Positions 1,532 through 14,423 of a stretch of 19,547 nucleotides of DNA are shown piece by piece. Numbering within the stretch: the first letter of the stretch is position 1; every line of letters starts with the position of its first letter. The stretch is from a virus (taxonomy: Duplodnaviria; Heunggongvirae; Uroviricota; Caudoviricetes), in the IMG/VR virus record IMGVR_UViG_2574180220_000004; one strand, given 5' to 3'. Both the position numbers and the translations under genes were made by a program. The notes under the pieces were generated by a model that did not search any database, was not told where the DNA came from, and saw only the letters and a list, made by a program, of their open reading frames with translations.

Positions 1532-1741
1532 TTAATTTGAATACAATGCAATTCTCGAGGACTGAAGTTTCTCGCAATTAAAATTTATCAGTTTTACTTT
1601 CTGCTCTCTGGAAACGCCTGCTTCTTTTTTACCTGAGAGCATTTTTTCGCATTCTGATTTCGTTAGTTTAGATTTTGAATATCTTGTCCAGTTAGTAGGA
1701 GTGCCACCTTCCTTTTCAATAGTGGCGGTAATTTTATACAT
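1532..1741 (-). CDS. ydaC: Small Rac-prophage protein, YdaC-like (69 aa)
   Basis: ORF 1532..1813 trimmed to the ATG at 1741..1739 (MYKITATIEKEGG...). Its 5' end overlaps the 3' end of ralR by 8 nt. Confidence 0.7.
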   Translation of the reverse strand: MYKITATIEKEGGTPTNWTRYSKSKLTKSECEKMLSGKKEAGVSREQKVKLINFNCEKLQSSRIALYSN

Positions 1742-1928
1742 GAACACCTCCATTATTATTTCCAGTGGTTCGTTTATTCCGTCTTTCGAGTGCTTCTTTT
1801 TCACTTCCACCATAACCGGTTCGGGATTCGCATCCGTTACACTTCGCTCGGTAATATCCTGAAATGGCTTTCACCGTTACTGATGGACAACCACAAAATG
1901 GACATGGTTTAACATTGTCATATCTCAT
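1734..1928 (-). CDS. ralR: RalR (Lar), small Cys-rich protein; type I toxin / restriction alleviation, 64 aa
   Basis: ORF 1734..1967 trimmed to ATG at 1928..1926 (MRYDNVKPCPFCGCPS...CNGCES...). Cys4-type motif; position upstream of recT as in Rac. Confidence 0.82.
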   Translation of the reverse strand: MRYDNVKPCPFCGCPSVTVKAISGYYRAKCNGCESRTGYGGSEKEALERRNKRTTGNNNGGVHV

Positions 1929-9774: not shown

Positions 9775-10548
9775 TTAGAACTGTTCATTGCCATCGAGGT
9801 TAGGTAGCATAATTTTTTCAATCAAGGCGAGAGCCTTTTTGTCCCGGTCAGCGAAGTATTTCGGGGCATATTGCGGCAACCAAATATTGTTAAAATGTTC
9901 TTTGAAATCTGCTAAATATTCATTTGGGTACAGCCTTGCAGGGTATACGCGACCATCGGGATATTCATGGTCATAGGTAGGGAATGTTTTGGGTTCTACG
10001 TTTCTATTATCTCTTAACCATTGTGAAAATACTCTTCCTTGTGAAATGTCAGGAACCATTTTTTCTGGGAGTGTGTACCCTGCTTGTTCAAGAGGTGCAA
10101 CCAAGTTGAATGTCAGTTCATTAAGAATAGAAAAGTGCGTGTGAGGAATTCTACTACGATTAACCATGTACCGTTTTAAATGTACAGGCATTTCTGCTGT
10201 AGTTCTTTCCCCTGACATCCATTCACGAACCCATCTTGAAACCTGGACTGCAAATTTGGGCGATAGCCACTGCGCTAGATTAATAGCGATGTCAGGATGC
10301 ACCCATGTCCCTTGGTTTTCAGGTCTTCCACCTTTAAATGATTGAATTAACTCCGATATGGGAATTCCCATATCGCGTGATAATTCGTCAAAAAACTCTT
10401 GAGTAGTTTTGAGTCTAGTGTAATCAGAGAGCAGTTTGCCCGCAGTTCTACACATTGATGTGGCGTTTATGTAACCATCTTTGGCACGTAAATGTATTAT
10501 TTCGCCGTCAATTTCACGAGAAATCAAAGATAATTGAAAGGATGTCAT
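9775..10548 (-). CDS. KilA-N domain protein, 257 aa, with uncharacterised C-terminal half
   Basis: N-terminal ~100 aa carry the KilA-N/APSES-type signature (DGYINATSMCRTAGKLLSDYTRLKTTQEFF...WVHPDIAINLAQW). ATG 10548..10546 with GAGGAA 7 nt upstream. Convergent with the replication operon. Confidence 0.8.
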   Translation of the reverse strand: MTSFQLSLISREIDGEIIHLRAKDGYINATSMCRTAGKLLSDYTRLKTTQEFFDELSRDMGIPISELIQSFKGGRPENQGTWVHPDIAINLAQWLSPKFAVQVSRWVREWMSGERTTAEMPVHLKRYMVNRSRIPHTHFSILNELTFNLVAPLEQAGYTLPEKMVPDISQGRVFSQWLRDNRNVEPKTFPTYDHEYPDGRVYPARLYPNEYLADFKEHFNNIWLPQYAPKYFADRDKKALALIEKIMLPNLDGNEQF

Positions 10549-11070
10549 TGAAAATTCCTCAAGTTGGAGAGTTCTGGAACATTAAGGCGAGGTGGCAGTA
10601 ATGCACCATCTGTAATCTTTTGATACTGACGTAATCGGGCCTGATGTGCAACGCCTTGCAAGTATGTAACTCATTGAAAACGATCATTTTTATCTATTGA
10701 CATCAAATGGCAAACTGTCATTGTGCGGCTATGGCAAGTGGCAAATGCTTATAAATCATATGGATATAAATGGTACAGAAAGAGTTGTTTTCTCTAGGAT
10801 ATGAGTATACGCCCAATGCTGATTGGTTGAATTTTGTTCTTGTTTTAAAGGGTAAGAGTTTAAAGTGTTGGCAGTGATGTATTGGATAGTTAGAATTGCT
10901 GTGGGTGCTTGAGGCTATCTGCCTCGGGCATGAACACCAAAGGTAGATAGAGAAAAGCCCCAGTTAACATTACGCGTCCTGCAAGACGTTTAACATTAAT
11001 CTGAGGCCATATCTATGCGACACATAGAGATTAGCCTCTTACGGACCGAAAGGTCAAGGAGAAGCAGGCT

Positions 11071-11196
11071 ATGAAGCAGCAAAAGGCGATGTTAATCGCC
11101 CTGATCGTCATCTGTTTAACCGTCATAGTGACGGCACTGGTAACGAGGAAAGACCTCTGCGAGGTACGAATCCGAACTGGCAGACGGAGGCTCTGA
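11071..11196 (+). CDS. Hok/Gef-family type I toxin homologue, 41 codons, apparently C-terminally truncated
   Basis: MKQQKAMLIALIVICLTVIVTALVTRKDLCEVRIRTG matches the conserved Hok/Gef N-terminus and transmembrane segment; AAGGAG SD 9 nt upstream. ORF stops after TGRRRL; the family-conserved GQTE is encoded in the +1 frame. Confidence 0.6.
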   Translation: MKQQKAMLIALIVICLTVIVTALVTRKDLCEVRIRTGRRRL

Positions 11197-11278
11197 TTCG
11201 TAGACTACTAATCTGAGTAAAAGACCCAGCGGGGAAAGAACCACGCCGGGACTAGTTAATAAGATATTTATAGCGTGG

Positions 11279-11644
11279 CTATTCTTTTTTTGCGGTATAG
11301 ACTTTTTCGCCTGAGAAGTCTGGAGCTACCCAAAAGTTAATATTAAACTGAGCATCATCGCTTAGTTCAACACGGTGCCAGTATTGTGGTGGGCTTGTTG
11401 CAAAAGCGCCAGCATTAATGACTACTTTTATCTCCGGTTCAGTAGCATTCTCATCAGCAAAACCATAATATGTTACAGTACCTTCCATCACGCATAACTG
11501 TCCAAAAACACCTGCTGCTGTATTATGATGTGTTAATAACGCTGAAGGTACGTTCTCTTTTGTGAAGAACGGAGTTGAGCGTTTGATTACCCAGTCTTTA
11601 GGAATTCTCTTGTGTGTCATAACCACCCCCCATAAAACATGCAT
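11279..11644 (-). CDS. Small cupin-like protein (possibly DUF1971-type), 113-121 aa
   Basis: ORF with two candidate starts (ATG 11644 or ATG 11620, both with SD-like sequence). Family assignment is from memory and uncertain. Confidence 0.6.
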   Translation of the reverse strand: MHVLWGVVMTHKRIPKDWVIKRSTPFFTKENVPSALLTHHNTAAGVFGQLCVMEGTVTYYGFADENATEPEIKVVINAGAFATSPPQYWHRVELSDDAQFNINFWVAPDFSGEKVYTAKKE

Positions 11645-14268: not shown

Positions 14269-14344
<76 letters not shown>

Positions 14345-14347
14345 TAT

Positions 14348-14423
<76 letters not shown>

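What the first reader, a model, noticed from the sequence alone, without database searches (positions are those of the whole stretch)
11015..11196. hok-family ORF ends early, with an upstream mini-ORF coupled by ATGA
The first 37 codons give a canonical Hok/Gef N-terminus and membrane segment, but the frame stops after TGRRRL. The family-conserved GQTE is encoded in the +1 frame starting at 11181, as if one C were lost from GGCCAG. A 19-codon uORF (11015-11074, GAGG SD) terminates overlapping the hok ATG, reminiscent of mok-hok coupling. Either a decayed toxin or a shortened variant.
Basis: partly seen in the sequence, partly recalled or inferred. Interest (0 to 1): 0.45.

Follow-up and report, generated by a model that had tools for sequence, protein, structure and literature searches.

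The report
Decayed prophage hok/sok toxin–antitoxin locus
This is a broken copy of a well-known phage-borne "host-killing" toxin/antisense-RNA module in an E. coli Rac-type prophage: the regulatory front half is intact, but the toxin's tail and the mRNA's 3' control element are lost, so it is an ordinary pseudogene that databases still list as a protein.

Summary
A 41-codon Hok/Gef ORF lies at 11071-11196. A 19-codon uORF (11015-11074) ends in ATGA on the hok start, and QTE is readable in the +1 frame from 11181.

[quoted passage not shown] These parts look intact:
- the hok promoter;
- the 5' leader (Rfam RF01794, 101.5 bits);
- mok;
- the antisense Sok gene.

The 3' third is wrecked:
- one C is lost from GGCCAG;
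- a second 2-nt shift follows;
- the ancestral frame carries a TAA;
- 3 more nt are deleted;
- the hok 3' UTR, with the fbi element and the terminator, is replaced by the flank of a convergent DUF1971 gene.

A rare 48-aa sister allele has GGCCAG intact but is otherwise near-identical (two copies differ at a few leader positions). This confirms the single-C loss. It also shows that restoring the C does not restore a canonical Hok. One viral contig has a further 93-nt deletion.

The ATGA-coupled uORF is not a decay feature. It is the normal mok of hundreds of intact hokD loci.

The exact allele is one sequence, found in about 104 of the complete-genome E. coli records searched (5426 genomes). 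Verdict: decayed toxin gene, known kind, low interest. Toxicity was not tested.

The parts
10868..10896 (+). hok promoter (TTGGCA, 17 nt, TAGAAT); inferred transcript start at about 10903
   Evidence: 10 of 12 consensus matches, the only promoter-like site in 10750-11400. The -10 TAGAAT is conserved in all relatives. The Rfam leader model begins at 10903.
10903..11073 (+). hok mRNA 5' leader (tac/ucb region, Sok target, mok), full length
   Evidence: Rfam RF01794 'sok', 101.5 bits (gathering 59), model positions 1-157 of 157. The same model hits intact relatives at 106-118 bits and does not hit K-12 hokD. The model lies on the hok-sense strand.
11015..11074 (+). mok homologue: 19-codon leader ORF with SD GAGG at 11003-11006; its stop overlaps the hok ATG (ATGA)
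   Evidence: It is positionally homologous to mokC (K-12) and mokW (933W). The same 56-nt spacing is found in intact hokD loci L012 and L013 and in 765 records at >=99% identity.
10947..11023 (-). Sok antisense RNA gene (about 71-77 nt). 5' tail complementary to the mok start and SD, then a long hairpin and a U-rich 3' end. Promoter: -35 TTGACC (11057-11052), -10 TAATCT (11033-11028).
   Evidence: Placed by homology to annotated sokC and sokW; sequence comparison. Predicted fold -28.7 kcal/mol, z -4.0. Ends and promoter are inferred, not mapped.
11071..11196 (+). Truncated hok ORF (41 codons; SD AAGGAG at 11056-11061). Codons 1-37 equal HokD, followed by an out-of-frame RRRL and a stop.
11179..11183 (+). 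Frameshift site: GGCAG where relatives have GGCCAG or GGTCAG (loss of one base)
   Evidence: Alignments. The sister 48-aa allele has GGCCAG and is otherwise near-identical.
11184..11220 (+). Degenerate remnant of the Hok C-terminal codons: second (-2) shift (TCGCTGTC to CTCTGA), hokW-like TTCGTAGACTAC, GAA to TAA, -3 deletion, original TAA stop
   Evidence: Alignments.
11223..11252 (-). Hairpin at the junction. It is a better terminator for the convergent DUF1971 gene than a hok post-stop hairpin. Homology to the hok 3' UTR ends here.
   Evidence: Minus strand -17.5 kcal/mol, z -4.5, followed by UCUUUUAC; plus strand -13. Window 11222-11310 is collinear with the DUF1971 flank in the hok-less prophage L008.
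11279..11644 (-). Convergent DUF1971 (TehB-like) gene whose 3' flank replaces the hok 3' UTR (fbi plus terminator)
   Evidence: Pfam PF09313, 91.5 bits. The gene is present in 458 genomes, about 350 of them without this hok junction.

Best explanation
[quoted passage not shown] It lies between the replication genes and the late antiterminator.

The 5' two-thirds is a normal hok/sok module. A sigma-70 promoter drives a structured leader. A 19-codon mok ORF must be translated for ribosomes to reach the hok start, here by termination-reinitiation at ATGA. A convergent about 75-nt Sok antisense RNA covers the mok ribosome-binding site.

The 3' third is destroyed. The periplasmic C-terminal 14 residues of Hok are replaced by RRRL after loss of one C. 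Further indels and a stop follow. The mRNA 3' UTR that carries the fold-back-inhibition (fbi) element and terminator is replaced by the terminator and flank of a convergent DUF1971 gene.

Predicted consequences (inferred, not tested):
- The locus probably still makes Sok and a hok transcript.
- The transcript cannot form the 5'-3' closed, stable, translationally inert reservoir that post-segregational killing needs.
- Any peptide made lacks the conserved C-terminal tail and is most likely non-toxic.

The module is therefore a pseudogene riding on a successful prophage.

Inferred order of events: intact 51-aa locus; then a 48-aa allele with the DUF1971 junction; then the 41-aa allele (loss of one C; this window); then, in one contig, a 93-nt deletion removing the Sok promoter, mok and the hok start.
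For: Shown by tool results:
- Hok family membership and canonical residues 1-37.
- Full-length leader match to Rfam RF01794.
- hok promoter.
- Sok region and promoter collinear with annotated sokC and sokW, with a Sok-like fold.
- Lesions -1, -2, TAA and -3 relative to five intact relatives.
- 5'-3' (tac-fbi) duplex: -27 to -32.4 kcal/mol in intact loci (0-15 of 300 shuffles as good). It is at chance level in the window (-21.9; 101 of 300) and in the 48-aa allele (-18.3; 234 of 300).
- The downstream sequence is collinear with the DUF1971 flank of a hok-less prophage.
- The 48-aa sister allele shows the single-C loss directly.
- A further-decayed 93-nt-deletion copy exists.
- There are no intermediate or variant short alleles. 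About 104 records are >=99% identical; the next full-length hit is 88%.
- Other independent junk-tailed HokD variants exist.

From the literature:
- Only mok translation up to the hok SD is needed (PMC9841398).
- In R1 hok, 18 of 20 possible premature stops, Y48N, M46I and stop-loss extensions abolish toxicity (PMC9841398).
- The tac/fbi stem keeps the full-length mRNA closed and stable (PMC9841398).
- The C-terminal periplasmic part was proposed as the toxic domain (PMC8509063, citing Poulsen 1991).
- The conserved Tyr codon in the lost tail is edited to Cys in hokC, hokD and hokE, and a Cys29-Cys46 disulfide is essential for HokB toxicity (bioRxiv 10.1101/2025.08.07.668861).
Against: - Toxicity of the 41-aa peptide has not been measured. 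It keeps the whole transmembrane helix and Cys30. [quoted passage not shown]
- Ala substitutions of conserved C-terminal Glu residues (E41A, E49A) left over-expressed R1 Hok toxic (bioRxiv 10.1101/2025.08.07.668861).
- The first 110 nt of the CDS, both promoters, the leader and Sok carry essentially no damage. This is not what uniform neutral decay would give. It could instead reflect the allele's youth or selection on Sok and the leader.
- RefSeq annotates the ORF as a protein (WP_001445775.1), not a pseudogene.
- The allele is common (at least 1000 contigs).
- No expression data were available.
Confidence: 0.85

Rival explanations
1. Functional short variant: the 41-aa peptide (transmembrane helix plus TRKDLCEVRIRTG-RRRL) is still a membrane-active toxin or an attenuated one (for example growth arrest or persistence). 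It would be expressed through mok coupling and held in check by Sok.
For: - The ORF, its SD, mok coupling and both promoters are intact.
- The transmembrane segment and Cys30 are retained.
- The allele is frequent and annotated as a protein.
- HokC toxicity maps in part to the transmembrane region (PMC8509063).
Against: - The tail is out-of-frame junk produced by nested frameshifts, not a conserved short form.
- There is only one allele, with no sequence diversity.
- A derivative has lost the start of the gene.
- fbi is missing, so classical regulation cannot operate.
- R1 data show that late stops, Y48N and M46I abolish toxicity at native expression (PMC9841398).
Confidence: 0.08
2. Orphan antitoxin retained for use: the toxin is dead, but the locus is kept because its Sok RNA silences hok mRNAs with the same leader. 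These would come from incoming phages, plasmids or co-resident prophages (anti-addiction or immunity).
For: - The Sok gene, its promoter and the target region are undamaged while the toxin end is wrecked.
- The mok/Sok-target segment is >=99% identical in 765 records, most with intact hokD.
- Genomes carrying the allele hold 2-5 hok-like places.
Against: - One copy has lost the Sok promoter by a 93-nt deletion.
- The intact 5' part may simply reflect the allele's youth.
- Endogenous chromosomal Sok RNAs did not repress R1 hok in K-12 (PMC9841398), so cross-talk needs near-identity.
- There is no expression or functional evidence.
Confidence: 0.1
3. Artefact or recoding: the missing C is a sequencing or assembly error, or the frame is restored in vivo by +1 ribosomal frameshifting at the rare Arg codons AGA CGG AGG.
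For: - The deleted base lies next to a short C/G run.
- Three consecutive rare Arg codons follow the site.
Against: - The sequence is identical in about 100 independently finished genomes, 3 prophage records and 7 metagenomic viral contigs.
- The +1 frame yields QTEALIRRLLI, not the conserved QTEVAVF.AYE tail. Recoding would therefore not rebuild a Hok.
Confidence: 0.01

Closest known systems
hokD (relF) of E. coli K-12 cryptic prophage Qin
   Same: Residues 1-37 are identical, with one synonymous nucleotide difference in that stretch. It belongs to the same Hok subfamily and also sits in a prophage.
   Different: K-12 hokD is the mirror-image wreck. It keeps the full 51-aa ORF, the fbi element and the terminator. 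It has lost the leader, mok and Sok: relE abuts it and there is no RF01794 hit. The window keeps the 5' part and has lost the 3' part.
hokW-mokW-sokW of Stx phages 933W / VT2-Sakai (Sp5)
   Same: 91.8% nucleotide identity over leader and CDS. The remnant C-terminal codons (TTCGTAGACTAC = FVDY) are of the hokW type. The location is lambdoid-phage-borne. The annotated sokW overlaps the mokW start as inferred here. hokW-sokW was shown experimentally to be a working TA (PMC8621323).
   Different: hokW is an intact 51-aa ORF. mokW is an in-frame 70-aa extension (57-nt spacing) rather than a 19-codon ORF ending at ATGA (56 nt). fbi is present, with a -32.4 kcal/mol duplex.
Intact hokD loci with the same leader (e.g. 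E. coli AST240 L012; 08-00022 L013)
   Same: The leader, the 19-codon ATGA-coupled mok, the Sok region and hok codons 1-37 are identical or nearly identical.
   Different: These loci have the full 51-aa Hok, the 9-bp post-stop hairpin, fbi and an intrinsic terminator. The window has none of these.
hok/sok of plasmid R1 (paradigm)
   Same: Same architecture: hok, mok starting about 19 codons upstream, antisense Sok over the mok translation-initiation region, and a structured leader (PMC9841398).
   Different: R1 mok runs 70 codons in another frame over hok. R1 has the tac-fbi end pairing and 3' processing that underlie post-segregational killing. Here the 3' partner is absent.
hokC (gef) of K-12 and a plasmid hokD copy (L007) disrupted by IS186/IS421 just after the stop codon
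   Same: These are precedents for natural loss of the 3' UTR/fbi by a DNA rearrangement immediately downstream of hok. Their 5'-3' duplexes are also weak (-23.4 and -19.3).
   Different: In those loci the Hok ORF itself is intact and the disrupting element is an IS. Here the junction is with a DUF1971 gene flank and the ORF is also frameshifted.

Membership tests
[quoted passage not shown] | Hok/Gef toxin ORF (PF01848) of about 50 aa: N-terminal transmembrane helix plus conserved periplasmic C-terminal tail (..GxxEVAxFxAYE..) | tested here: inconclusive
   Pfam HOK_GEF scores 59.1 bits (cutoff 22) but covers only profile positions 1-34 of 42. The transmembrane helix and Cys30 are present. The C-terminal tail is replaced by RRRL. 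The ORF is homologous by descent but incomplete.
[quoted passage not shown] | mok leader ORF starting about 19 codons upstream, with its own SD, whose translation reaches the hok initiation region | tested here: met
   ATG 11015, SD GAGG 11003-11006, 19 codons, stop overlapping the hok ATG. It is positionally homologous to mokC and mokW. The same form occurs in intact loci. The literature shows translation beyond the hok start is dispensable (PMC9841398).
[quoted passage not shown] | Structured hok mRNA 5' leader (tac, ucb, Sok target) | tested here: met
   RF01794 full-length hit, 101.5 bits against a gathering score of 59. Intact relatives score 106-118 bits.
[quoted passage not shown] | Convergent Sok antisense RNA with its own promoter, complementary to the mok translation-initiation region | tested here: met
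   At sequence level only. The region is collinear with annotated sokC and sokW. -35 TTGACC and a TAATCT -10 are conserved. The predicted RNA has a 5' tail, a hairpin and a U-rich end. Transcription was not tested.
[quoted passage not shown] | 3' fbi element pairing with the 5' tac element, plus post-stop hairpin and terminator of the full-length mRNA | tested here: not met
   The best 5'-3' duplex is -21.9 kcal/mol and is matched by 101 of 300 shuffles. Intact loci give -27 to -32.4 with 0-15 of 300. Homology to the hok 3' UTR stops at about 11250, after which the sequence follows the DUF1971 flank.
[quoted passage not shown] | Toxicity of Hok; repression by Sok; post-segregational killing | not testable with these tools
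   Needs expression and plasmid- or prophage-loss assays.
HokD subfamily (NCBI 'type I toxin-antitoxin system toxin HokD') | 51-aa sequence MKQQKAMLIALIVICLTVIVTALVTRKDLCEVRIRTGQTEVAVFTAYEPEE or a close variant | tested here: not met
   Residues 1-37 are identical and residues 38-51 are absent. RefSeq names it only 'Hok/Gef family protein'.

The most novel reading that the evidence does not exclude
The toxin is dead, but the undamaged Sok gene is what is retained. A prophage-borne orphan Sok would act as an anti-addiction or immunity RNA. It would neutralise hokD-type modules with the same leader (>=99% identical in about 660 records, most annotated as intact hokD) carried by competing phages, plasmids or co-resident prophages. 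A weaker variant of the idea: the 41-aa transmembrane-only Hok is an attenuated membrane peptide with a non-lethal role.
Probability: 0.1. Interest if true: 0.5.

Novelty: already known. Interest (0 to 1): 0.15.

Why it matters
The practical value is mainly annotation hygiene. WP_001445775.1 ('Hok/Gef family protein', present on at least 1000 contigs) is best treated as a pseudogene product. Surveys that keep Hok CDSs of 40 aa or more would count it as a toxin.

The locus also gives a tidy natural decay series for a type I TA: 51 aa with fbi, then 48 aa without fbi, then 41 aa, then a 93-nt deletion. It is the mirror image of K-12 hokD, which lost the 5' half.

The comparison shows that among close relatives mok occurs in all three reading frames relative to hok: an in-frame 70-aa fusion, a long +1 overlap, and a 19-codon ORF ending at ATGA. 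This fits published evidence that only translation up to the hok start matters.

None of this changes current understanding of hok/sok.

Tried and rejected
- **Sequencing error.** Rejected: the sequence is identical in about 100 finished genomes, 3 prophage records and 7 IMG/VR contigs.
- **Programmed +1 frameshift at AGA CGG AGG.** Rejected: the +1 frame gives QTEALIRRLLI, not a Hok tail.
- **A family of short Hok variants.** Rejected: only one allele was found, and the next full-length match is 88% identical. Other short or junk-tailed HokD proteins in the database have unrelated tails, or are contig-end partials.
- **The uORF as a sign of decay or a novel coupling device.** Rejected: the same uORF occurs in intact hokD loci.
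- **An fbi-like partner elsewhere downstream.** None found above the shuffle background. The terminator scan found no plus-strand intrinsic terminator in 10750-11400.
- **Exact-pattern scan of GTDB species-representative genomes for the junction.** Zero hits, so taxonomic spread beyond the source names was not established.
- **The three 'phage' records as evidence of an active virus.** They are PHASTER-predicted prophages, not isolates.
- **Supplementary table of PMC9841398** (positions of loss-of-function stops). Not held. The argument that late stops are loss-of-function therefore rests on the paper's counts (18 of 20) plus the named Y48N, M46I and stop-loss mutants.
- **PADLOC.** It has no model that hits the Hok ORF or the DUF1971 protein.
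- Script one search failed on a file-name assumption and was rerun. A 'downstream identical' flag was wrong because of an offset slip and was recomputed.

Full report
**1. What is in the sequence**

- ATG 11071 to TGA 11194-11196 encodes MKQQKAMLIALIVICLTVIVTALVTRKDLCEVRIRTGRRRL (41 aa).
- A 19-codon ORF (ATG 11015 to TGA 11072-11074) has a GAGG 8 nt upstream of its start. It ends in the tetranucleotide ATGA on the hok start.
- CAG ACG GAG (QTE) sits in the +1 frame from 11181.
- Pfam HOK_GEF matches at 59.1 bits but covers only profile positions 1-34 of 42.

The window is a Rac-type lambdoid prophage of E. coli.
- It carries intR, the RalR/RalA pair, recET, kilR, sieB and ydaSTUVW-like genes, and trkG.
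- The hok locus lies between a KilA-N/BstA-like gene and a convergent DUF1971 gene. This is upstream of the DUF1367/DUF1364/DUF1133 block, the last of which one record annotates as antitermination protein Q.

**2. It is a hok/sok locus, and its 5' part is complete**

- Rfam RF01794 ('sok') matches 10903-11073 over the whole model at 101.5 bits, against a gathering score of 59.
- The same model hits K-12 hokC and four other relatives on the hok-sense strand at 106-118 bits. It gives no hit at K-12 hokD. The model therefore marks the hok mRNA leader; Sok itself is encoded opposite.
- A promoter TTGGCA-17-TAGAAT lies at 10868-10896. It is the only promoter-like site in the region and places the transcript start at about 10903.
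- On the minus strand, the sequence is collinear with annotated sokC (K-12) and sokW (phage 933W). This places a Sok gene at roughly 11023/11021 down to about 10950.
- The Sok promoter is -35 TTGACC (11057-11052) and -10 TAATCT (11033-11028).
- The predicted Sok RNA has a single-stranded 5' tail complementary to the mok start codon and SD. A long hairpin and a U-rich end follow (-28.7 kcal/mol, z -4.0).
- These Sok coordinates are inferred by homology and have not been mapped.

**3. The uORF is mok, in a common configuration**

Among close relatives, the distance from the mok ATG to the hok ATG takes three values.
- 57 nt: in frame, giving the 70-aa 'Mok-Hok' proteins that dominate the protein database. 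Examples are hokC, hokW/O157, PEC178 and P15-385.
- 58 nt: a long +1 overlap, as in R1; seen in a plasmid copy.
- 56 nt: the window, with a stop at ATGA.

The 56-nt form is not linked to decay.
- The 106-nt segment 10975-11080 is >=99% identical in 765 records. Most of these are annotated as intact hokD.
- Two of them that I read (L012, L013) have the same 19-codon uORF together with a 51-aa Hok, fbi and a terminator.
- Published mutagenesis of R1 shows that mok must be translated up to the hok SD. Translation beyond the hok start is unnecessary (PMC9841398).
- Termination at ATGA should therefore support coupling. This is an inference.

**4. The 3' part is wrecked in several ways**

Lesions in the CDS, found by alignment to K-12 hokD and hokC, an O157 hokW-type locus, and L005, L006, L012 and L013:
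- Codons 1-37 are identical to HokD.
- GG(C/T)CAG has become GGCAG (-1).
- TCGCTGTC has become CTCTGA (-2, with substitutions).
- The hokW-type codons TTC GTA GAC TAC follow, but the next codon GAA is TAA.
- A further 3 nt are missing before the original stop.

Loss of the 3' UTR:
- After GACCCAGCGGGG..., homology to the hok 3' UTR ends.
- From about 11222 the window is collinear with the 3' flank of the DUF1971 gene in a prophage that has no hok (L008).
- The hairpin at 11223-11252 folds better on the minus strand (-17.5 kcal/mol, z -4.5, followed by UCUUUUAC) than on the plus strand (-13).
- The 9-bp post-stop hairpin of intact hokD (-19.7) is gone.

Loss of the fbi element:
- In intact relatives the element CAGGCATCCTCAA(C/T)GCACCCGC lies about 190 nt after the ATG. 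It pairs with the 5' end GCGGGTGCTTGAGG at -27 to -32.4 kcal/mol (0-15 of 300 shuffles as good).
- In the window the best partner scores -21.9 and lies inside the CDS (101 of 300 shuffles as good).
- In the 48-aa sister allele it scores -18.3 (234 of 300).
- The tac-fbi end pairing that keeps full-length hok mRNA closed and stable (PMC9841398) therefore cannot form.

**5. Population picture and order of events**

The exact 41-aa allele:
- It occurs in about 104 of the complete-genome E. coli records searched (5426 genomes). The next full-length match is only 88% identical, so there are no diverged short variants.
- The exact protein is on at least 1000 contigs in the large collection. One source names it for E. 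marmotae, and another labels it 'MULTISPECIES'.
- It is also in three GenBank 'phage' records. These are PHASTER-predicted prophages of carbapenemase-producing clinical isolates, not isolated viruses (bioRxiv 10.1101/2022.06.29.498070).
- Seven IMG/VR contigs carry it. No GTDB species-representative genome has it.

The 48-aa sister allele:
- A 48-aa protein, MKQQ...RTGQTEALIRRLLI (P0002), is encoded in three contigs.
- Its DNA carries the same downstream lesions and the same DUF1971 junction as the window. It differs from the window by GGCCAG, plus a synonymous T/C in the adjacent codon or a few leader substitutions.
It also shows that the 'repaired' gene is already non-canonical.
- The three 48-aa copies differ from one another in leader and upstream sequence. 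All 41-aa copies that I read are identical. This fits the 41-aa allele being derived and recently spread.

Further decay:
- One IMG/VR contig (L021) carries the 41-aa allele with an additional 93-nt deletion. The deletion removes part of Sok, its promoter, mok, the hok SD and the first hok codons.
- Other HokD variants with unrelated junk tails after RTG or RTGQ also exist.
- Inactivation of chromosomal and prophage hok genes is a long-known pattern. In K-12, hokC has IS186 just after the stop. K-12 hokD lacks the whole leader, mok and Sok.

**6. Function**

Shown: all sequence elements needed to transcribe Sok and a mok-hok mRNA are present, and the fbi partner and the Hok C-terminal tail are absent.

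Inferred:
- The transcript would fold directly into the open, Sok-accessible form. It would be turned over, and no stable reservoir would exist for post-segregational killing.
- The peptide is probably inactive.

Literature support for an inactive peptide:
- At native expression of R1 hok, 18 of the 20 codons convertible to stops by one substitution were recovered as loss-of-function.
- Y48N and M46I were also loss-of-function, the latter with normal protein level. So were stop-loss extensions and a C-terminal FLAG tag (PMC9841398).
- The equivalent Tyr (HokD Y47) lies in the lost tail.
- The preprint 10.1101/2025.08.07.668861 reports A-to-I editing of that codon to Cys in hokC, hokD and hokE. 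It also reports an essential Cys29-Cys46 disulfide in HokB.
- Earlier work proposed the periplasmic C-terminus as the toxic domain (cited in PMC8509063).

Counter-evidence:
- The same HokC study found determinants of toxicity in the transmembrane region.
- E41A and E49A R1 Hok remained toxic when over-expressed.
- Toxicity of the 41-aa peptide therefore cannot be excluded without an experiment.

**7. Comparison and verdict**

The locus works like, and descends from, the hokD/hokW group of hok/sok modules. The nearest characterised relative is hokW-sokW of 933W/Sp5, at 91.8% identity. That module was shown experimentally to be a TA (PMC8621323).

The locus fails two defining features: a complete Hok and the fbi/3' UTR. 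It is best filed as a degenerate member, that is, a pseudogene with a possibly still-expressed orphan Sok.

This kind of object is already known. The allele itself is catalogued in RefSeq, mis-labelled as a protein rather than a pseudogene. Interest is low.

The most novel reading not excluded is that the intact Sok is retained as an anti-addiction or immunity RNA against hokD modules with the same leader. I put its probability at about 0.1.

Noticed in passing
window 1532-1813 (- ORF) and 1557-1735 (+): A second type I TA in the same prophage: the RalA antitoxin sRNA (Rfam RF02694, 225 bits) lies opposite a 93-aa ORF (RalR-like). This is as expected for Rac.
   Followed up: no
window 9775-10548 (-): The 257-aa protein next to the hok locus (upstream, on the opposite strand) has a KilA-N domain (94.5 bits) and matches the PADLOC BstA model (73.8 bits, C-terminal half). 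A homologue is tagged PF26567 BstA_C. It may be a prophage-encoded abortive-infection defence gene next to the dead TA.
   Followed up: partly
window 11279-11644 (-): A convergent DUF1971/TehB-like gene with its own minus-strand terminator. It occurs in 458 E. coli genomes, about 350 of them at 95-96% identity in Rac-like prophages without the hok junction. Its function is unknown. Its flank is what replaced the hok 3' UTR.
   Followed up: partly
window 14269-14422 (+): Two adjacent tRNA genes, tRNA-Thr(TGT) and tRNA-Gly(TCC), lie just upstream of the lysis cassette. They are absent from the otherwise similar prophage of strain 7/2 (L001), which shows that the late region is mosaic.
   Followed up: no
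Rfam RF01794 hits: window 10903-11073 (+); L003 602-754 (-): The Rfam family called 'sok antitoxin' matches the hok-sense strand and ends at the hok ATG. In K-12 the hit is on the hokC strand, while annotated sokC is on the other strand. A hit therefore marks the hok mRNA leader, not the orientation of Sok.
   Followed up: yes
L021 (IMGVR_UViG_3300007747_000074), region homologous to window 10976-11068: A derivative of the same 41-aa allele carries a 93-nt deletion. The deletion removes part of the Sok hairpin, the Sok promoter, mok, the hok SD and the first hok codons. This is a further step of decay.
   Followed up: yes
proteins P0001, P0003, P0009, P0018, P0113: Several independent HokD variants are canonical up to RIRTG or RIRTGQ and then carry unrelated tails. 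One tail (ASSMHPHLTRFGGFFVAL) closely matches my by-eye translation of the hok 3' UTR (one residue differs), which implies an internal deletion. The codon 37-38 region may be a recurrent breakpoint.
   Followed up: no
L007 (plasmid pEC20-4B-2-1) 1442-2787; L003 (K-12 hokC): A plasmid hokD copy has an IS421 (IS4-like) element inserted right after the stop codon. The post-stop sequence is near-identical to that in K-12 hokC, which abuts IS186. This suggests recurrent IS insertion at the GC-rich post-stop hairpin, removing fbi.
   Followed up: partly
relatives L004, L005, L006, L007, L012, L013 versus window 11015-11073: Among close relatives, mok occupies all three frames relative to hok: 57 nt in-frame (70-aa fusion), 58 nt (long +1 overlap) and 56 nt (19 codons ending at ATGA). 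This suggests that only the act of translating the leader is conserved.
   Followed up: yes
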